Source of the DNA: Rhina ancylostomus
Taxonomy: Eukaryota
NCBI GenBank assembly: GCA_030265395.1
Contig: JARFYF010000052.1
Span: 60,676,429 to 60,740,428, forward strand
DNA: 64,000 nt
Direction of reading: 5' to 3'
In this document: positions 22,240 through 58,857 of the stretch, piece by piece
Position numbering within the stretch: position 1 is the first letter of the stretch
How the letters are laid out: each line of letters begins with the position of its first letter
Position numbers and translations under genes: made by a program
The notes under the pieces: generated by a model
Databases searched by the model: none
The model's input: the letters and a program-made list of their open reading frames with translations, nothing else
Told to the model about the DNA's origin: nothing

Positions 22240-22571
22240 GTCAGTGAAAACTGAAGCAATCACTCCAAGCTTCCTATAAAGCTATTAAAATTAAATGATT
22301 NNNNNNNNNNNNNNNNNNNNNNNNNNNNNNNNNNNNNNNNNNNNNNNNNNNNNNNNNNNNNNNNNNNNNNNNNNNNNNNNNNNNNNNNNNNNNNNNNNNN
22401 NNNNNNNNNNNNNNNNNNNNNNNNNNNNNNNNNNNNNNNNNNNNNNNNNNNNNNNNNNNNNNNNNNNNNNNNNNNNNNNNNNNNNNNNNNNNNNNNNNNN
22501 NNNNNNNNNNNNNNNNNNNNNNNNNNNNNNNNNNNNNNNNNNNNNNNNNNNNNNNNNNNNNNNNNNNNNNN

Positions 22572-22862
22572 NTCCAGCAACTCAGGTTCAGTCCTGACCT
22601 CCAGTGCTGTCTGTGTGGTTTTCTCTGGGTGCTCCAGTTTCCTCTCATCCTTACGACGTATGGCTTGATAGGTTAATTGGCCACTATAATTTGCCCCAAC
22701 TGCCTAGGTGAGTGGTAGAATCTGGGGTGGAGTTAATGGAAAGGAGGGAAGAATCAAATAGGATTTGTGCAGGATTATTGTAAGCAGGTGCTTGATGGTT
22801 GGTGCAGACTTAGTGGGCTGAAGGACCTGTTTCCATACAGTATGATTCTCTGTGACTCTACA
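22572..22862 (+). mobile_element. tRNA-derived SINE (HE1/V-SINE-like), 5' end in gap
   Basis: ggttcagtcctgacctccagtgctgtctgtgtgg...gggtgctccagtttcctc...gtgggctgaaggacctgtttcc (CR1-like tail). Confidence 0.78.
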
Positions 22863-23294
22863 TCAAGTGATTAAACTTCCAGTGGATTGTATTTGCTTTC
22901 CACAGTTAATATGAATGTAGATTTGAAAAGCATAAAAAACCCTGCAGATTCTGAAATAAAAAAAGAAAATGCTGAAAATACTTGGAAGGTCACAAAGGCA
23001 GGAACTGAGAGATAAAGAAAGATGAGGACCCTGGAAAAGTTAGAGTTTATTCTGTGGGTCTAACCATATGAATAAGCAAAGCGAATTTAGAAATCAACTT
23101 TATTCTGTATTCATCTCATTGTTGAGCTCAAAGCTAATTTAGTAAGTGTTTGCATTAGGCAGATCATTACAATTCCTTGTGAAGAAAAGAGAATTAATTC
23201 ACAGGTGGTGGTGGCCAGTTGCTTTCCTGAAGATGAAGCAAAGTAGTGGAACTTCTGTGTTGGAGTCTGTTTTGGGCATTCTTCGTTGTATTTA

Positions 23295-24092
23295 GAGTCA
23301 CAGAGCAATACAGCTCAGATACAGGCCATTTGGCCCAACAAGTCAATGCTGACCACAGTGCTCATCCAGCTAGTCCCAATTTCCTGAGTTCGGCCCATAT
23401 CCCTCCTAAGCCCCATCCTTTCCAAATGCTTCTTAAGTGATACTATTGCACCTGTCTCAACCACTTCCTCTAGCAGCTCATTCCATATACTCACCACCCT
23501 CTGAAAAAAATTGCCCCTCGGGTCCCTTTTGAATCTTTTCCCTCTCACCCTAAATTTATGTCCCTCAGTTTTGGACTCCTGTATCCTGGGGAGAAGACTC
23601 TTACTGTCCACCTTATCTATGCCTCTCATAATTTTAAACATTTCTATAAGGTCACCCCTCATTCTCCTAAGTTCTAAGGAACAAAGACTTACTCTGGCCA
23701 ACCTCTCCCTATAACTCAGGCCCTCTAGTCCTGGCAACATCCTCATAAATCTTTTCTGTACTCTTTCCAGTTTAACCACATCCTTCCAATAACATGGTGA
23801 TCAAAACTACACTGTACTCCAAGTGTGGCCTCACCAACGACTTATACAACTGCAACATATGTCCCAACTCCTATACTTAATACCCTGACTGATGAAGCCC
23901 AGCATGCTAAACACCTTTTTCACCACCCCGTGTACCTGTGACGCTGCTTTCAATGAACTATGCACTTGTACTCCTAGGTCCCTCTGTTCCATTACACTCC
24001 CTAGTGCCCTACTATTCATAGTATAAGTCCCACACTGGTTTGATTTTCCAAAATGCATCACCTCACATTTATCTGTATTGAAATCCATTGTG
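23295..24092 (-). mobile_element. CR1 LINE 3' end (ORF2 C-terminus + 3' UTR)
   Basis: ORFs 23315..23779 and 23831..24124: FNTDKCEVMHFG, LERVQKRFMRMLPGLEGLSYRERL, RRMRGDLIE, RVVSIWNELL. Confidence 0.93.
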
Positions 24093-24488
24093 ATGTTCCA
24101 TTCCCTGGCATAAACATTTTGCAACTTATTGCATGTAAGAATTTATAAGGAAAGAAAACAAACCAGAATCTTGGATTTATCTCCAGAATGATTAATTAAC
24201 ATGTCCAATGTGGGTTTTTTTTAGCTTAGTGAATGTTTTCTGGTAAGCAACTTCATTTTATTGAGGGTGTTTTTGTGTACCATTTTTAAGCAAATTCAAT
24301 CGTTACACCTGATTAATCTGGGATGATGTAATGATTTGTCATACAATTAAATTTGATTAAGGCTGCAGAAATTCAATAGTTGAATGATGTCTCTGTTTTC
24401 AGGAAAACTTGCTGGCATTGATGGACAGTTGCACTGCATTCATATAGTTTTGAAAACATAAGTAAACTGTTTTTTGTTTATTTCCCAG

Positions 24489-46550: not shown

Positions 46551-48670
46551 AGATACATTTTGGGCAGTTATGTAGAAGATTTATAAAACAAGACTAAAAT
46601 GAACAGTTCTTTTGAAGAGTTGATACTTGAACTACATATAAAATTCTTTTGAAGGTTGCCAACTAGCATTTCCCCACAGAGTTCATGTGTAACTTCAAAA
46701 ATATTTAATAGCATCTCACCAAAACCGCTCAGGCCTGATTCTGACCATGCATCCCAACATGCCTGCTCTCAAAATTACTCTCATCATTGAAAATGATGGG
46801 CCAATTCTAAATCACTAAATCCTGCCTTAATCACTTCCAAAATTTCCATGAGATAATTCAGTATCTTTCATTGTTTACCTTTATTTTCATTCTTCCTTTG
46901 AGTATGTTTTAGTTTGGATTTGCCAGTATTGAATTTGAGGTTTGTCATTTGCCTAACAATTTACATTGCCAATCTAAACACACTGCAAGACTTACCCTCA
47001 ATTCTTGCTCAATGCCCTATTTTAGTACCACCAATCCATGAGTTTAACAAACTCATAATTTTTTTTCTATATCCCAGGTCACTTATGTAAATAAAAGTCC
47101 AGGAGATGCTCTTCTGGCTGCAGTTGAACTATTTGTCACTATCTTAAATGAGGTGCATTCCTTGCAGCTTTTTTTTCTTAATCCAAATTAGCAATTCAAT
47201 CTCAGGTTTTCCCTTAGACATTCCTGAGTATTCGTTTAATTAAAAATGTTTAATGTGGAACTTGTGTCATGTGGCTTCTGGAAGTTTAAGCAAACCGTAA
47301 CGTAATAAAGGATTTTCCATTTTTTCTATTTTATGCAAGGTTTTTAAGCTTTGAAGTTTATCAAGCAGGTATCCTCCTTTCTATGAAATGCTGACTGTTT
47401 AATTATGTTAATGCAAGGAAATTTTTACACTATTTTACCCAATATTGACATATGCCTTTAATTATTTTGATTTTATTTACTACCCCTTTAAAATTTGCAA
47501 ACTATTTGCCAGGTTCCAGTGATGCAGCCACATATAAATCTTATACATTCTCTGGATCAATAATCCAAGAGTCTTAGCACTAGGGGCCATGGGGGATGAA
47601 TTGAGACACGAATTTGTGGCAATGCCACAAACTTAAGGAAAGGTTTAAGGGGGGGGAATTTGCCATTCTTCCCTGGTTTGACCTTTCTAACTCGAGGCCC
47701 GTCAATGAAATGGCCCTGTGACATCTAACCAAACCATTTAGGGCCAATTAGGTTCAGACAGTAAACAGATGCATGCTAATGAATTGCACATTGTATGACC
47801 AAATAAATAAGTAGTACAGCAAAAAATGCTCCCATTCCCATTTCTCTTCATTTCGATCAAAGTCCTGTGGTGAAAACAAAGTTTTCCCCCTTCCATATTG
47901 ACCAAATATCTTGACTTTCATCTTCATTATGTTGTACTTTAGTTGCCATGTCCCTTTTGCAAACAAATGTGGTTAGCCAAGAAGCAATATCAACTATTTA
48001 TAAAACAATGGGATTTAACTTGTCCAAGACTGCCTGCCACCTTTTCACTCATTATTCATTCCACACATCAGCTTGCTGGCCTGGTTGAAGACTGGCAGCT
48101 GCACTGAAAATTTAAATATGTAATTATCAATCAACCTGAAAGTAGTGTGCCAAAAATTAATTGTGGAACTTTCGGAGTGTTTCATCCCTTATGTTTATTC
48201 TTGTGTGAAGGATCACCGCTACCAGTTTCTCCCCTGGCACCTTCACTGAACCATCTGCTCATTCTATAACCCTGGCATTCCCTATTAGTTATTCTCCTTG
48301 AGTCAAATAAACTTGCTTCATATCTAAGTATGCTGCTTTCCACCATAACTACTCATTTTTGTCCCCAATTCATATATTTTAGCTTGCTTTTATTAATTCA
48401 GTATATTAAAATAAGAATCTTTTTATCATTAAATTTAACTTACATTCATGAAGCTTACAAATCTAAACACCATTGAAACTTGCAATACAACTTTTGTTTG
48501 TATAGCTCCTAGGACATCTTCAGCAAGGATTTTTGAACTGTTCATATATACAGCCTCAGACAATGATGAAAGCATAAAGATGCCTAAACATTGGGAAAAT
48601 GCTTCATTTTGAAAATTGCTTTTGCAAATATATCATAAGTCTGTATATAATTTCAAAACATTTTTTCTAG

Positions 48671-49021
<351 letters not shown>

Positions 49022-49519
49022 TAAAAAAAACTCCTGCAATTTAAATGTAGTCATCATTGAAAGAAATTATTATTACCCTACAGAAATATAGTAAAATAAA
49101 AAAATAGGAGATGTCCACTAAATCTACTTAAGCTGAATAAATCAAAATTAGAACAAAAGTCTACCAACAAAGTAAAATGAAAATATCATAGAAACATAAC
49201 CAGAGCACTCAGTGATTATTCCTCCTTTATTTTCTCATAAATTCCAAATCTTCATTAAATTTCCATAATACCTTTACAGTGATAATTTTGAATTGTAATG
49301 TGCCTTTAAGAACGAAAAATGTATCCAGGCACTTCGCAGAGGTGTAAAAATACAGAAGGAAGGGAGAGTTTGAAGGTATCAGTGGCATATATAAGGGTGT
49401 TGTGTAAGGATGGTTTACACCCAGNNNNNNNNNNNNNNNNNNNNNNNNNNNNNNNNNNNNNNNNNNNNNNNNNNNNNNNNNNNNNNNNNNNNNNNNNNNN
49501 NNNNNNNNNNNNNNNNNNT

Positions 49520-51050
49520 GTCAAACCTAAAAGGAACGCTCCCCACTGCAGACGACAGCAGCACACTGAGGAGACGGAGGCCGCAGGGGAGGGGTAGACT
49601 CCTCCTACATTCACTCAAAAAGACATGCAAATCCTAGTTAACAAAATCAAAGCCAGGACGGTTGCTGTGTGCAACAAGAGCTAGGATAGGACCAGGAAAC
49701 TTGCCAGGCCTGGCATGTATACAGAAATCTTCTAGTGGTGAGAATTCCTGCACAGTGGACCAATACAGGAAGAAATCAATGTCCCCAAGATATGTCAGGA
49801 TGATTTGCGTGCTATTGTTTATATTTGCAGAGTGGAGATCCTCATGGCAAAGTGTATTTAATATGGGGTTCTGAGTTGCTTAATCAAGGTGTCAGTCATC
49901 AGGAAGTATAGAAATTTTGCAGCAAGCCACTTAAGTGCCTGGATCATGGAATCATGCGTGTCAAAATCAGTGCAGGTGATGCAGAACGTGAAGCATTTTT
50001 AGGTATCATCTGGGCTTCCTTGTATGATTATTGGTGTGATGATTCAAGCATGGCAAGGGTCGCTTGGTTTGCACCAAGGGCCATGAATTTGCAGACTTAT
50101 AAAGAGAAGATTCTCTTTATCTGGGTCTCCCTTGAAGCTTGTGGTACTCTTCAGGTTCTGTCTCTTGGGATTTCAGGCTCCAGAACTCCTTGCCTCTCTT
50201 CCTCTGACACCCAACTGGTGCCTTTTGTTTCCATATCTGTTTGGCATGTACTGAAGGTACTCCCCTGGACTGATGCAGTCAACAAAATCTCATCTTGAGG
50301 AGACCAATGGTATTTTCCTCCATCATCCTGGTACTTGTATGACTTTCTTTGCACCTGTGCCCAGCAGCTGTCATTGGAGAGCCCATGATATGAGCAGCCA
50401 CAGTAGAGGGTAAGCCGCCTTGTCCCTCCAGACGTTATTGGCCACTCAAGATGTCCAGTAGTACATCCTCCCTTAGGATGAAGGAGGCATATGTGCACCC
50501 CTGAATCCTGGTGCTTGCCATGAGAAAACTCTTCTCCTGATCTGTAACAAGTTGCACATTGAGAGTTAATGGAAAGGTCTGGATTCTTAATGGGAGCCCT
50601 TATGGAAGCATGAGTTCAGTCAATGGCTGACTGCACTTGTGGGAATCCAGCAATACTGGCACATCCCACTGCCTGCGATGCCACCTATTCCTCACTGAAA
50701 GCAATGTAGGAGAAATCATTTTCTCCCATTTACAGTGCTTACTGTTGTGTTGAGCAGCAAATGGGGAGATATGAAAAAGATCTGTTGTCGCAGGTTAGAA
50801 AGAACTTGTAAGAGGAAGTTCAGAGTCAGCATGACCTTAACATCCACACAAAGAGCAGTGCTAGAGTGAAAGCATAGTGGAACGTCATGTACCTTGGTAT
50901 TTACAGCATTGGAAAACCTGGGCTTGTGAGTGTATTGGTAATCAGATGTGGTGTCTCTGAAGTCTCTCTGGAATAGGCTCCTTACAGGTAGATATAACTT
51001 TGCCTCCTGTATAAGAAGTTTGTCACCAATCAACCTTGAGTGACCACCAT
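49520..51050. mobile_element. Old DNA transposon remnant, possibly the Harbinger Myb/SANT gene
   Basis: GC-richer island; minus-strand HKPRFSNAV and plus-strand FTQKDMQILVNKIKAR resemble Myb/SANT-like N-termini of Harbinger elements. Confidence 0.3.
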
Positions 51051-52486
51051 GGCCATAATGATGTCTCTAGTTTTATCAAATCTTACAGAATTGGAGCCTA
51101 AAAATTGGGAGTTTTATGATCCAGTTCTTTAGCATATGTTTTATATCACCCTATTGCTGAATGATTTTGTGCAAACATAGTTCACTTGGTTAATGAAAAT
51201 AATAAAAGGTAGTGAAATTTATTGTGTTGATACTACAGTCTATTTCACCGACCTTGAATTTAATCAACTTTNNNNNNNNNNNNNNNNNNNNNNNNNNNNN
51301 NNNNNNNNNNNNNNNNNNNNNNNNNNNNNNNNNNNNNNNNNNNNNNNNNNNNNNNNNNNNNNNNNNNNNNNNNNNNNNNNNNNNNNNNNNNNNNNNNNNN
51401 NNNNNNNNNNNNNNNNNNNNNNNNNNNNNNNNNNNNNNNNNNNNNNNNNNNNNNNNNNNNNNNNNNNNNNNNNNNNNNNNNNNNNNNNNNNNNNNNNNNN
51501 NNNNNNNNNNNNNNNNNNNNNNNNNNNNNNNNNNNNNNNNNNNNNNNNNNNNNNNNNNNNNNNNNNNNNNNNNNNNNNNNNNNNNNNNNNNNNNNNNNNN
51601 NNNNNNNNNNNNNNNNNNNNNNNNNNNNNNNNNNNNNNNNNNNNNNNNNNNNNNNNNNNNNNNNNNNNNNNNNNNNNNNNNNNNNNNNNNNNNNNNNNNN
51701 NNNNNNNNNNNNNNNNNNNNNNNNNNNNNNNNNNNNNNNNNNNNNNNNNNNNNNNNNNNNNNNNNNNNNNNNNNNNNNNNNNNNNNNNNNNNNNNNNNNN
51801 NNNNNNNNNNNNNNNNNNNNNNNNNNNNNNNNNNNNNNNNNNNNNNNNNNNNNCATTGGTTTCAAGTAGGGTTAGGAGATTTAGAGTAAAGATTTTTTTC
51901 CTCAAAAAGAATTGATACATTGTGCAGAAGACAGGGGAATAATTATTAGTAGAATAACCAATATTATTTGAGAATTGGTCTGGTCCTGAAGTCTTAAGGG
52001 CAGGACTTAACCAGGAGCAGGTGAAAAGTGCAATGTTTTCCAAAAACAAATTAGATCAACAGTGTGTGAAAGCAAATCTTGTCAGATGTAAAGTCTCAAC
52101 AGATCTATTGCCGTAAATAATGTTAGTAGCTATATGTAAATTAGAAACCGTGATCCAATCTATTCCCAAGGTCTACTTTGTGGTATATAAAAGTATTTTT
52201 AATTATGTTGTAATATATTTGCAACATCTAATGGTGGACAATCAGTAAAGCATGCAGTTGTTTAAATTGGGTAAAAAGGGTGAAGCAACCAAAGGTTCTT
52301 ACCTTTTAATTAACAGGTGATTTTTTTTTTAACCTGAGGTATCACATCCTTATTAAACTGTCTGTTAATTTCAATGTAATTTTGTTTGTTGAGATTAAGG
52401 CGTACTCCTGTTTCTCACATCGTGCCAAATATTTCTCTTTTCTTACTTTTTAATGCTGGTCATCTCTTTTCTTCATTGCTAACCAG

Positions 52487-52495
52487 GAGCTGCAG
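52487..52495 (+). CDS. FRYL: Candidate 9-nt alternative microexon of FRYL encoding ELQ
   Basis: Long pyrimidine tract, ...cttcatTGCtaaccag|GAGCTGCAG|gtaagt; perfect donor; in a phase-0 intron, so frame-preserving (EDAE-ELQ-GESMDNF). Confidence 0.82.
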
Positions 52496-53039
52496 GTAAG
52501 TTGCAGCCTGGTGCAGTGTTTTGTAAAGTTACTGTCTTGTGTGTGATAAATGTTGAATGTTCACGGTACAGTATTACTGCGTGGGGCCTTACTGCTCTGT
52601 TTAAATATGTGTGCAAATTTTGCCTATTTGTAGGATATGACTTTGCATAATTGTAACAAAATAAAATTAGTAAGCAATACATTGAAGTAAAGAATTATCT
52701 AACAAAATTTTATGGATAATTTTTATTATTAATTATCTAACTTTTATAAATATGTAGTTATGTATTTAAAGCGCTGTTATAGGTGATAATGAGCTGCGTG
52801 TTATTTTGGTTGACTGTATGTTTAGTTCTTTGTGTGCTATCACTTGTGGGTATTTTGGTAAATCACTAAGGATTAGCAGCTGTGCAGTGTGTTTTGGGGT
52901 TAAGTGATTTATAGCACAACACCTCTAATATACAGTGCAGCACTGCTCTGGCAAAGTTTAAAATGGTCATATGAAAAGTAGCTTTAAAAATGTTCCTGCT
53001 CTTACAAAAATAATAGATTAACAAATAAAACTATTGCAG

Positions 53040-53240
53040 GGAGAAAGCATGGACAACTTCAACTGGGGTGTGCGGAGGCGTTCCTTGGAAAGCATTGAGA
53101 AGGGAGATACACCATCGCTCCAAGATTTCCATACTTTAGGAAGCACACCCAGTTTAAATTTAACTAATCAGGAGGATACTGATGAGTCATCTGAGGAGGA
53201 GGTACTGACCGTTAGTCAGATATTAACCCGCACACAAATA
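53040..53240 (+). CDS. FRYL: FRYL coding exon (GESMDNFNWGVRRRSLESIEKGDTPSLQ...ILTRTQI)
   Basis: ctattgcag| (A-rich, weak tract) and ATA|gtaagt; 201 nt. Confidence 0.95.
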
Positions 53241-56179: not shown

Positions 56180-56350
56180 CTAAACAATGATTCAACAACG
56201 TATGATGCTGTACCAAATCATGTGGATTCCCTGTTGCAGTCAAGGGACACGACAACCAGTGTGGTGTCTGAAGAAGCACCACTGCCTAGAGCTGAGACCC
56301 CAAATTTAGAGACACTTCTTCCAGATAGCGCTAACAACCAGCTGCCTGAG
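56180..56350 (+). CDS. FRYL: FRYL coding exon (LNNDSTTYDAVPNHVDSLLQS...ANNQLPE)
   Basis: ttcccttag| and GAG|gtggga; 171 nt, phase 0 to 0; divergent low-complexity region. Confidence 0.88.
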
Positions 56351-58857
56351 GTGGGAAACAATGTGGGTAGAAATATGGGTTGGTGCATGGCTGATTTGGG
56401 ATCTTTCTAATGCTGTTTATTTCTTGTATATTTCTGCACTGAAAGCTGATCTAAAATTGCAGTTTCATAGAACCATTGAAGTTTCAATATTTTTAACCTG
56501 TGGTAGTTTTTAGACAATATGTGTGTCATAAAATCCTTGAAGGATTCTAATTAGACACATGAACTGTCTGTACAGGTTAAAAAAACTTCTTTAATTTAAT
56601 CAACTTGTTTCGCACCTTTGCTGAGGTAAAGGAGAGCCTGCAGTTTCTTGTAGTTAATCCGATGGTCATCAAGGTGATGGGTTTTTTTCTAAGCAACTAA
56701 TTCTTTGAAAAAATAAATAATGGCTTTGTTGTGTTAATCTTTTCATGGCTTTGCATTATGCTGAATGATTGGGGTTGAGATTGTGGGTACTAGCCTCAGG
56801 CTTGCTGTGTTAGCACATCGTCTATGTCATCTGTCCTTAAAATGCCTGTGTAAAGACCTGTGGAATAAGGCTGGGACTAACTCTGATTTGTAAGTATTAA
56901 CATTACTTTTATATGACAGTTGGAATCTAACACAACTTTTATAATTTTTAATAGAAACCTTTTGTTAAATAGTGAAATTCCAGTCAAATGTATTGCTGTT
57001 AAGCATTTGGCTAAATGGATTTGCATTATCAAAGTTGGGGGTTGAAATGAGAATGGTTAAGTGTTTCTCATTTTTACACTTCCTAATGCATGAGTATTAA
57101 ACACAAGCTTAATAAAGTTAAGGTGAGGTTGCATCACTGTCTTGCGAAGACTGTCCTGGTTGGAGATGCAAGAAAATAATACTGGAGAATGTCAAATGTA
57201 TTTCTGTCTACTGTCTTCGCCTTTGAATTCAACACTTAGCCTTCCTGATTTTTGAATTTACTTGTGTATTTGATTTTATAAATTGTGTAACTGGTATATT
57301 AAGACTGATGTCTTGCCATAAGTTCCATTTGAGATGTACATTGATATTATATCACGGAATCATTATAGAGTCATAAAAAGATAAAGTCATGGAAACATGC
57401 CCTTTGGTCCACCAAGTCCACACTGGCCATCAACCATCTATTTATAATAATCCTATCCTAATTCCATTTTTTATGTTAATATAAACTCTAATGTGAAAGA
57501 TTGGTACATACACCAAGGGGTACTGATAAGAAGGAAGTTTGCTACTTTCTCTTGCTACTTTTTCTGCATGATTGTTGCATGAAGAAGCCCTATATAGCCA
57601 CATTACTTAGAGTTATAAAATATGAAAGCAGGGGCATTGAATTTTACTTTCGGATATTTTTTGTAAGTCTTCATTATTTGTTGCAAAGCTTTAGAAAAAG
57701 AAAACGCATTGCATCTATAATTAATGTATTTCCATCAATCTTTGACTAAAAGGTGACCAGCAGACTGTTTCTAGAATCAACCTGGTCCAAAAGCTTGTCT
57801 GAAGTACAAAAGTTGCATGACAGTAATAATAAGGATTTCAATTACCCACCAGTAATTAGGACAAGACCAGGTTGTGGAGGATGCAGAATTCTTAAGAGTC
57901 CAATTGAGAGAACTTTTAACTAGCAGGCCTAACAAGAAAGTGGGTGGTTACTGGACTAAGTTTTCGGAAATAGTAGAAGGTGGGTCAGCAGGAGAATATT
58001 TTTAATGCAGCAGACTTAATTCAGTTTGATTTAACATTATTGTGGAAAATGGTAGAAATAAACCAGTTCAAAAGGTTTTTTAAGCTGGGCTAAAGCCAAT
58101 TTTGCTAGGCTGAGATAGGATTCAGCGAAATAGACTGACAACAGCTTCTTGAAGGTCATTGGGGAGTGGGGTGGGGGGAGAGGATGGGTAGTTTAGACCA
58201 GATATGTCTAAGTGATGAAGTGGAACTGCATCCTCCAGATGGAGGCAGAAATCTTTTTCACATATAAATGTACCTGGATGAATACTGTCATCTACAAGGC
58301 CACAGACCAAGAGCAGGGAACTGGGATTAACTAAAGTAGACCCAATAGTTGGCATGGACATCATAAACCAAATGGCATGAATTGCAGTGATTCTGTAGGC
58401 AATTTTTAGGCATATTACTCTTTCAGGAGTATTTCCTCAGTTCAGAGGAAACACTTGTAATTTACTCACTATTGTCACATCTCCTCAGGAACTTAACTAA
58501 TCATGATTATCGGTATCACCAAGCTTCCTCATCCGGATTAAAGGACCTTGTATTTCTTTATTGTCTGACCTGTCTTTAAAAACAAAACTCCTGCAACATC
58601 AGTGTTTATATTGATTACTGTCAATTGGACCCCATTTGACTTCACAAAAACATAGGCCCAGCAGTATAACCATTACCAGAATTTAAAAAGGAAGATTTTA
58701 TGCTGCCTTTTACTTAAAGCCTTAAACTGCTTCCAAGCAGCATTAAGACTCCAGTTGTTAAAATGTTGTTTTAAAATGTACATTCAGAAAATATTACCAA
58801 ATTTTGATATGCAAGTCACATCCATTGCTGTATTTTTAGTTCTGTGTTTGATTACAG

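What the first reader, a model, noticed from the sequence alone, without database searches (positions are those of the whole stretch)
52430..52501. 9-nt in-frame microexon (ELQ) with neural SRRM3/4-type architecture in FRYL
Seen: an extended pyrimidine tract (~52432-52475), TGC at 52477-52479 only 7 nt before the exon (another at 52454), then AG|GAGCTGCAG|GTAAGT with a perfect donor. It sits in the phase-0 intron between ...VELEDAE and GESMDNF..., so it inserts E-L-Q without shifting frame. The ~700 nt around it lack recognisable repeats. Known: SRRM4/nSR100 and SRRM3 activate 3-27 nt neural microexons through UGC motifs near the 3' splice site, and I recall ELQ-containing FRY/FRYL isoforms at this junction in bony vertebrates (unverified). 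Inference: the microexon dates to at least the jawed-vertebrate ancestor and would likely be missed by annotation.
Basis: partly seen in the sequence, partly recalled or inferred. Interest (0 to 1): 0.75.

Follow-up and report, generated by a model that had tools for sequence, protein, structure and literature searches.

The report
Known FRYL neural microexon, ray copy
A nine-base exon hidden in an intron of the FRYL gene of what is likely a ray would add three amino acids (Glu-Leu-Gln) and matches, in place, length and peptide, a microexon already listed as switched on by the neuronal splicing factors SRRM3/4 in human, mouse and zebrafish, so it is likely used the same way here and is ordinary apart from being absent from the shark and ray FRYL gene models examined.

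Summary
A 9-nt exon at 52487-52495 (E-L-Q) sits in the phase-0 intron between the VELEDAE and GESMDNF exons of a batoid-like FRYL gene. It has a set-back pyrimidine tract, a UGC at -10 and a consensus donor, and is the only such site among 62 candidates on both strands. It is the ortholog of a catalogued SRRM3/4 target: human HsaEX0026467 (PSI 0 to 90.7 with SRRM4), mouse MmuEX0019673 (ELQ, eMIC-dependent), zebrafish DreEX0033622. ELQ occurs at this junction in 46 of 401 junction-spanning proteins, in both FRY and FRYL, including a bamboo-shark FRY model and a lamprey model, so it predates the FRY/FRYL duplication. It is in 0 of 39 chondrichthyan FRYL models seen, and inclusion in this lineage is not shown: one contig from another organism shows only the skipped form. 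The insertion falls in a predicted disordered linker between two conserved motifs whose spacing is fixed in 25 of 30 diverse Furry proteins. The scan held no earlier FRYL note, only a like HOOK3 case. Real, known kind, low interest.

The parts
48671..48847 (+). Upstream constitutive FRYL exon (177 nt, ends ...[13 protein letters not shown]), phase-0 donor at 48848
   Evidence: Exon chain against Pristis FRYL P0271; covered by a 10,705-nt contig of run X5 that leaves the window sequence on both sides of this exon
48848..52486 (+). Intron upstream of the microexon, 3639 nt (mouse counterpart 3177 nt)
   Evidence: mouse length worked out by hand from the FullCO field
52305..52436 (+). Intron stretch matched at about 90% by a short contig of another organism; weak hint of flank conservation
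   Evidence: run X1, one 159-nt contig at depth 2.3, 10 other letters and 3 gap letters
52412..52418 (+). Predicted distal branch point (A at 52417, 70 nt before the exon); an alternative candidate A lies at 52453
   Evidence: Motif scan only; not tested
52432..52476 (+). Long UC-rich pyrimidine tract set back from the acceptor, with a TGC at 52454-52456 inside it
   Evidence: pyrimidine fraction 0.84 against at most 0.74 at 28 constitutive acceptors
52477..52479 (+). Proximal UGC motif (-10 to -8), predicted SRRM3/4 response element
   Evidence: role inferred from 10.1101/2024.09.17.613571
52485..52486 (+). Acceptor AG of the microexon
52487..52495 (+). 9-nt frame-preserving microexon coding Glu-Leu-Gln
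   Evidence: same peptide at the same junction in 46 homologs; mouse exon listed as ELQ
52496..52501 (+). Donor with a full match to the six-base consensus
   Evidence: 4 of 28 constitutive donors match as well
52496..53039 (+). Downstream intron, 544 nt (mouse counterpart 493 nt); its acceptor is the poorest in pyrimidines of the 28 mapped (0.35 at -20..-4)
53040..53240 (+). Downstream constitutive FRYL exon (201 nt, starts GESMDNFNWG...)
   Evidence: the X5 contig runs from the upstream exon straight into sequence coding this exon's start

Best explanation
This is the cartilaginous-fish ortholog of the 9-nt ELQ microexon of FRYL, which is likely skipped in most tissues and likely spliced in by SRRM3/SRRM4 in neurons and endocrine cells, where it would add three residues to a predicted disordered linker of the Furry-like scaffold protein. 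Shown here: the exon, its splice signals, its frame, the same peptide at the same junction in other vertebrates, and the skipped transcript in another organism's run. Shown in print for orthologs: SRRM3/4 dependence and neural/endocrine inclusion. Inferred: by default the spliceosome cannot define so short an exon with its pyrimidine tract set back from the AG, so 48847 joins 53040; where SRRM3/4 is present it acts through the UGC at -10 and the UC-rich tract, helps early 3' splice-site recognition and the exon is included. Inferred and least sure: the three residues lengthen, from 12 to 15, the acidic spacer between two short conserved motifs (F-x-x-F-D-F-L and D-N-F-N-W) and so tune a protein contact of FRYL rather than its fold.
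For: Architecture unique in the window and unlike the 28 constitutive acceptors. Peptide match far above chance. 46 of 401 junction-spanning proteins carry ELQ, 1 carries ELL, 354 have no insertion, and no other insertion was seen; paddlefish isoforms P0303 and P0167 differ by these three residues alone. Mouse Fryl chr5:73,050,867-73,050,875 is listed as ELQ (PMC12626420 supplementary file 1) and as eMIC-dependent MmuEX0019673 (PMC8797185 table S2), with flanking introns of 3177 and 493 nt against 3639 and 544 nt here. Human HsaEX0026467, 9 nt: PSI 0 to 90.7 on SRRM4 expression in HEK293, 5.67 in progenitors to 50.5 in day-50 neurons (PMC7935315). Zebrafish DreEX0033622, 9 nt, paired with HsaEX0026467: neural dPSI 71.9, dPSI -47.8 on eMIC loss (PMC12626424). 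Mouse Fry has a 9-nt eMIC-dependent exon too; a bamboo-shark FRY model (P0348, XP_043548639.1) has ELQ. AlphaFold2 gives pLDDT under 50 across the junction with and without ELQ.
Against: No inclusion was seen in this lineage: 0 of 39 junction-spanning chondrichthyan FRYL models have ELQ, among them four 'isoform X1' models (only 15 of 136 and 15 of 81 members of the two big clusters were listed), and the one spliced contig among 4 runs shows the skipped form (tissue unknown, contigs drop rare forms). 6 of 7 chondrichthyan FRY models lack it as well. PMC12626420 scores the zebrafish exon No/No for UC repeat and UGC and prints it in a different cDNA context. A UGC is neither required nor sufficient: it is found in 74-79% of dependent microexons. 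The protein-level effect has no direct support; no solved structure covers the region.
Confidence: 0.9

Rival explanations
1. The exon is a true ortholog but is silent or barely included in chondrichthyan FRYL: a weakly used relic, with the neural ELQ form supplied mainly by the paralog FRY.
For: 0 of 39 chondrichthyan FRYL models seen carry ELQ although the 18-nt QMEVLA microexon is modelled in sharks and rays; the only spliced contig is the skipped form. ELQ is commoner in FRY-type (38 of 129) than in FRYL-type (8 of 265) proteins held, though one search used a FRY query with ELQ and a FRYL query without it, which biases this.
Against: All signals are intact and strong after a very long separation from bony fishes; a 9-nt exon is hard for gene-model pipelines, and FRYL models of coelacanth (0 of 10), gar (0 of 13), turtles/crocodilians/bird (0 of 15) and frogs (0 of 15) lack it too although it is used in zebrafish, mouse and human.
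Confidence: 0.06
2. The exon is used but its control in this lineage rests mainly on other factors (PTBP1 repression, RBFOX, NOVA) rather than SRRM3/4.
For: The UC-rich tract is also a possible PTBP1 site and YCAY words lie upstream (factor preferences recalled); many dynamic neural microexons lack UGC dependence (PMC12871342).
Against: The ortholog responds to SRRM3/4 in three species; no TGCATG within 300 nt on either side; the UGC lies between tract and AG as in dependent exons.
Confidence: 0.03
3. A chance arrangement of AG, nine bases and a donor-like word in intron DNA.
For: Raw AG-n-GTRAG arrangements are common: 62 in the window, about 26 per shuffled strand.
Against: Expected 0.0014 for AG-ELQ-GT in this intron, plus the rare acceptor architecture and the orthologs in print.
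Confidence: 0.01

Closest known systems
Human FRYL microexon HsaEX0026467 (hg38 chr4:48523488-48523496), mouse Fryl MmuEX0019673 (mm10 chr5:73050867-73050875), zebrafish fryl DreEX0033622
   Same: Same gene, 9 nt, peptide ELQ (mouse and zebrafish), similar long-upstream, short-downstream intron layout to mouse; SRRM3/4-dependent in all three.
   Different: Here in a cartilaginous fish, where it is in none of the 39 FRYL models seen and where inclusion and regulation have not been measured. Zebrafish intron lengths are the other way round (238 and 1633 nt from the FullCO field).
FRY paralog 9-nt microexon (mouse MmuEX0019666, chr5:150461389-150461397)
   Same: 9 nt, eMIC-dependent; FRY proteins carry ELQ at the same junction from shark to mammals.
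   Different: Other paralog (upstream residues LEDGE, FRVFR); that the mouse Fry 9-nt exon is ELQ is inferred from length and the protein models, its sequence was not seen.
FRY/FRYL 18-nt microexon (HsaEX0026468, QMEVLA-type)
   Same: Same host gene and regulator class.
   Different: A different exon near the C-terminus, outside this window; it is modelled in sharks and rays, and it is the FRYL event in the supplement of PMC13387927 and the fryl-1/frya exon deleted in zebrafish in PMC12626420.
SRRM3/4 (eMIC)-dependent neural microexon programme
   Same: 3-27 nt, frame-preserving, strong donor, distal tract and branch point, UC-rich element plus UGC before the AG.
   Different: No departure found.

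Membership tests
SRRM3/4-dependent neural microexons | 3-27 nt, frame-preserving exon with canonical AG and GT | tested here: met
   9 nt, phase 0, no stop
SRRM3/4-dependent neural microexons | Strong 5' splice site | tested here: met
   Full six-base consensus match, shared by 4 of 28 constitutive donors; no MaxEnt score computed
SRRM3/4-dependent neural microexons | Long pyrimidine tract set back from the AG, long AG-free zone, distal branch point | tested here: met
   0.84 against at most 0.74; AG-free zone 87 nt against median 42.5; branch point only predicted
SRRM3/4-dependent neural microexons | UGC between tract and AG, with an upstream UC-rich element | tested here: met
   TGC at -10; UC repeats at 52434 and 52463; 1 of 28 constitutive acceptors has a TGC in -25..-4
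SRRM3/4-dependent neural microexons | Included in neural tissue and skipped elsewhere in this species | tested here: inconclusive
   Skipped form in one contig of run X5, another organism, tissue unknown; no inclusion seen; no run was laid across the exon itself
SRRM3/4-dependent neural microexons | Inclusion depends on SRRM3/4 | not testable with these tools
   Shown in print for the human, mouse and zebrafish orthologs only
SRRM3/4-dependent neural microexons | Deep conservation in vertebrates | tested here: met
   ELQ at this junction in mammals, birds, reptiles, amphibians, ray-finned fishes, coelacanth, a shark FRY and a lamprey model
Ortholog of FRYL HsaEX0026467 / MmuEX0019673 | Host gene is FRYL, not FRY | tested here: met
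   tblastn blocks 80-100% identical to Pristis FRYL P0271, 44-81% to Polypterus FRY P0119
Ortholog of FRYL HsaEX0026467 / MmuEX0019673 | Same junction, length and peptide | tested here: met
   Camel FRYL P0067 has ELQ between LEDAE and GESM; mouse 9-nt exon is ELQ; intron lengths 3639/544 against 3177/493
Ortholog of FRYL HsaEX0026467 / MmuEX0019673 | Alignable flanking intron DNA in bony vertebrates | not tested
   No vertebrate genomic DNA was at hand for alignment

The most novel reading that the evidence does not exclude
The ELQ exon is a neuron-specific ruler switch in the Furry scaffolds: it lengthens a spacer that has stayed at 12 residues in 25 of 30 diverse Furry proteins between F-x-x-F-D-F-L and D-N-F-N-W; the first motif has the look of the phospho-mimetic hydrophobic motif that docks on AGC kinases (resemblance recalled, untested), so inclusion would retune how FRY/FRYL hold or activate NDR/STK38 kinases in neurons. 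An amphioxus Furry model has six extra residues at the same place (P0459), so the slot may have been open to a microexon since the chordate ancestor.
Probability: 0.12. Interest if true: 0.55.

Novelty: new member of a known kind. Interest (0 to 1): 0.15.

Why it matters
It adds a cartilaginous-fish copy to a catalogued SRRM3/4 target and corrects shark and ray FRYL gene models that appear to lack it. With the FRY paralog and the lamprey model it dates this exon to before the FRY/FRYL duplication. That fits the known deep conservation of vertebrate neural microexons and would not surprise a specialist. The one open question it touches is how FRY/FRYL engage NDR kinases (called open in PMC6087429): the exon marks a conserved two-motif linker as a place to test.

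Tried and rejected
Sequencing runs: no RNA holder listed on record (13 runs, 8 guessed as RNA). PMC13387927 names FRYL as an SRRM4 target but its supplement row is the 18-nt exon, so it was set aside. PMC12871342 studies a FRY microexon in chick and human, but which of the two could not be told; its supplement was too large to read. PMC10987577 had no readable supplement; supplements of the bioRxiv preprint 10.1101/2024.09.17.613571, which lists vertebrate orthologs including elephant shark, were not seen and may already hold this exon. Paper searches with no hit: microexons + chondrichthyan, microexons + lamprey + zebrafish + srrm3 + srrm4. Solved structures: only a TetR chain at E 0.002 on another part of the protein, taken as chance. 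Folding with and without ELQ gave no ordered structure at the junction, so no conformational effect can be read. 'Furry' + 'PIF pocket' found one paper, PMC4428629, whose passages do not describe the motif. A 15-nt SVVFS insertion of paddlefish, sturgeon and bowfin FRYL has no matching exon in intron 22241-24486 (that script stopped with an error after this step and the rest was redone). The repeat test did not discriminate. Look-alike stretches among earlier scan findings: none. No complex prediction was run: no NDR kinase sequence was at hand.

Full report
The window holds the middle part of one large gene on the + strand. tblastn blocks are 80-100% identical to sawfish (Pristis) FRYL, a little less to shark FRYL, and 44-81% to a FRY paralog, so the gene is FRYL and the animal is most likely a ray or relative (inference from protein likeness). 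An exon chain of 28 junctions places an upstream exon at 48671-48847 and a downstream exon at 53040-53240, joined in phase 0 as ...VELEDAE / GESMDNF....

The candidate exon 52487-52495 codes E-L-Q, has an AG at 52485-52486 and a donor at 52496 with a full match to the six-base consensus. TGC lies at 52477-52479 and 52454-52456. Of 62 arrangements YAG, 3-27 nt in threes, GTRAG on both strands of the window, this is the only one with a pyrimidine fraction of 0.70 or more, a TGC in -22..-4 and no AG in -40..-3; 1 of 200 order-3 Markov windows held such a site. Those thresholds were chosen with the site in view. A test free of them: the intron has 19 AG-9nt-GT stretches and one codes exactly the peptide that homologs insert at this junction, against 0.0014 expected. 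Compared with the 28 constitutive acceptors the site has the richest set-back pyrimidine tract (0.84; maximum of the others 0.74), an AG-free zone of 87 nt (median 42.5, maximum 100) and a near TGC, which 1 of 28 has. Branch-point-like adenosines lie 70 and 34 nt upstream; a third, 5 nt before the exon, is too close to serve this acceptor (distance rule recalled). The lack of repeats in the flanks is true but does not tell them from a control piece of the intron.

Homologous proteins show the exon in use elsewhere. Of the 611 proteins held, 401 span the junction by the pattern used (210 do not: fragments, unspliced frames, invertebrates): 354 have no insertion, 46 have ELQ and 1 has ELL. These shares are biased by the queries: one search used a skipped FRYL form, a FRY form with ELQ. 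FRYL-type carriers are camel, a nightjar relative, two snakes, three paddlefish isoforms and a lamprey model; paddlefish P0303 and P0167 differ by these three residues only. FRY-type carriers number 38 and run from coelacanth and teleosts to frogs, reptiles, birds and mammals, with one shark, Chiloscyllium plagiosum XP_043548639.1. The same insertion in both paralogs puts the exon before their duplication; the lamprey model suggests the vertebrate ancestor, with the caveat that it and the shark FRY entry are single automated models that may be homology-guided. Two hagfish models show the skipped form.

Against use in this lineage: 0 of 39 junction-spanning chondrichthyan FRYL models have ELQ (33 sharks and rays; 6 chimaera), including isoform X1 of Carcharodon, Cetorhinus, Mobula birostris and Pristis; only 15 of 136 and 15 of 81 members of the two large clusters were listed. 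6 of 7 shark FRY models lack it. But the FRYL models listed for coelacanth (0 of 10), gar (0 of 13), turtles and kin (0 of 15) and frogs (0 of 15) lack it as well, so absence from models is weak evidence. Of 13 runs listed, 4 were laid on 48600-52470. A 10,705-nt contig of run X5 covers the upstream exon and goes straight on into sequence coding GESMDNFNWG: the skipped transcript exists in another organism. One 159-nt contig of run X1, depth 2.3, matches intron 52305-52436 at about 90%, a weak hint of flank conservation. No inclusion was seen; tissues are unknown, contigs drop rare forms, and no run was laid across the exon itself.

The literature settles what the exon is. In PMC7935315 (passages of the main text and supplement rows seen) human FRYL HsaEX0026467, chr4:48523488-48523496, 9 nt, goes from PSI 0 to 90.7 on SRRM4 expression in HEK293, from 0 to 69.5 in MCF7, and from 5.67 in progenitors to 50.5 in day-50 neurons. 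In PMC8797185 (passages and supplement rows) mouse Fryl MmuEX0019673, chr5:73050867-73050875, and Fry MmuEX0019666, both 9 nt, are classed eMIC-dependent; the Fryl coordinates give introns of 3177 and 493 nt (my subtraction), close to 3639 and 544 nt here. PMC12626420 (passages and supplement rows) lists that same mouse interval as ELQ, and a zebrafish 9-nt exon as ELQ. PMC12626424 (passages and supplement rows) pairs zebrafish DreEX0033622 with HsaEX0026467: neural dPSI 71.9, dPSI -47.8 on eMIC loss, PSI 73.2 in neural tissue, 96.5 in endocrine pancreas, 6.6 in muscle and 3.3 or less in the ten other tissue groups. The two zebrafish entries are the same interval once the 100,900-base offset seen for the 18-nt exon is applied (my arithmetic). 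One discord: PMC12626420 scores the zebrafish exon No/No for UC repeat and UGC and prints it inside another junction; 0 of 220 proteins spanning that junction have an insertion, so I take the placement as a slip, which I could not check. The FRYL event in PMC13387927 (one passage and one supplement row) is the other, 18-nt exon. The rules for the architecture come from 10.1101/2024.09.17.613571 (passages and section 10) and PMC12871342 (passages and the figures-and-tables section): strong donor, distal tract and branch point, UGC near the AG, the UGC helpful but present in only 74-79% of dependent exons. No paper on this exon in cartilaginous fishes came up (searches), but supplements that could not be read (the bioRxiv preprint's ortholog tables, which include elephant shark; PMC12871342; PMC10987577) may hold it.

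How it most likely works. Shown: the exon, its signals and frame, the orthologs' dependence on SRRM3/4, the skipped form. Inferred: in cells without SRRM3/4 the exon is too short and its acceptor too weakly set up to be defined, and 48847 is joined to 53040; in neurons and endocrine cells SRRM3/4, acting through the UGC and UC-rich tract, brings about inclusion. At the protein level AlphaFold2 models of FRYL C-terminal fragments with ELQ (camel P0067) and without (P0048) both leave the junction in a long stretch of pLDDT under 50, and no solved structure covers it. The insertion lies between two short motifs, F-x-x-F-D-F-L and D-N-F-N-W. Among the 150 best representatives of 50%-identity clusters, 30 hold both motifs and 25 of these space them by 12 residues; the others have 7, 10, 11, 15 (ELQ) and 18. 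The 18 is amphioxus, with six extra residues at the same place. The motifs are also the most invariant columns of alignment A1, but I picked the distant rows for having them, so that is not independent. The likeliest effect is a change in a short-motif contact. FRYL associates with NDR1 by an unknown surface (PMC6087429, passages); the first motif looks like an AGC-kinase hydrophobic-motif mimic (recalled, not tested; PMC4428629, passages, does not mention it). In zebrafish most single microexon deletions had little or no larval phenotype (PMC12626420 abstract); the data rows I saw there were for the 18-nt fryl-1 and frya exons, and I saw none for a mutant of the ELQ exon in a search that was not exhaustive.

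Verdict. Real, correctly read, and already catalogued in three vertebrates as an SRRM3/4 target. What is added is a batoid copy missing from the gene models seen, an age before the FRY/FRYL duplication, and a testable idea on the linker. The scan's earlier notes hold no FRYL finding; a like case in HOOK3 was judged known. Interest 0.15.

Noticed in passing
P0459 (Branchiostoma floridae Furry model), residues about 2430-2440; equivalent to the window junction 48847/53040: Amphioxus has six extra residues (ending in Gln) at the same junction where vertebrates insert ELQ; could be an 18-nt microexon or an acceptor shift in an old gene model.
   Followed up: no
window 48800-48830 and 53049-53070: Two short motifs on either side of the microexon (F-x-x-F-D-F-L; D-N-F-N-W-G-V-R-R-R-S) are kept from invertebrates to vertebrates inside a predicted disordered region; the first resembles an AGC-kinase hydrophobic-motif mimic and the second ends in a basic kinase-site-like run (both resemblances recalled).
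   Followed up: partly
window 56350-56363: Two donors 12 nt apart after the LNND exon; the second adds V-G-N-N, an indel seen between manta ray isoforms.
   Followed up: partly
window 53017-53039: The constitutive acceptor after the microexon is the poorest in pyrimidines of the 28 mapped (0.35 at -20..-4) yet is used.
   Followed up: no
window intron 22241-24486: Paddlefish, sturgeon and bowfin FRYL have a 5-residue SVVFS insertion at this junction; no matching 15-nt exon was found here, though 22301-22572 is N.
   Followed up: yes
P0113 (Dissostichus eleginoides FRYL model): The only variant peptide, ELL instead of ELQ, among 47 insertions.
   Followed up: no
PMC12626420 supplementary file 1, row fryl-2: The zebrafish ELQ exon is printed inside the cDNA of a different junction and scored as lacking UC repeat and UGC; no protein held has an insertion there (0 of 220), so the primers listed may not span the exon.
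   Followed up: partly
window 51272-51853 and 11 other runs: Twelve runs of N in the window; a 582-base one lies about 630 nt upstream of the microexon.
   Followed up: no
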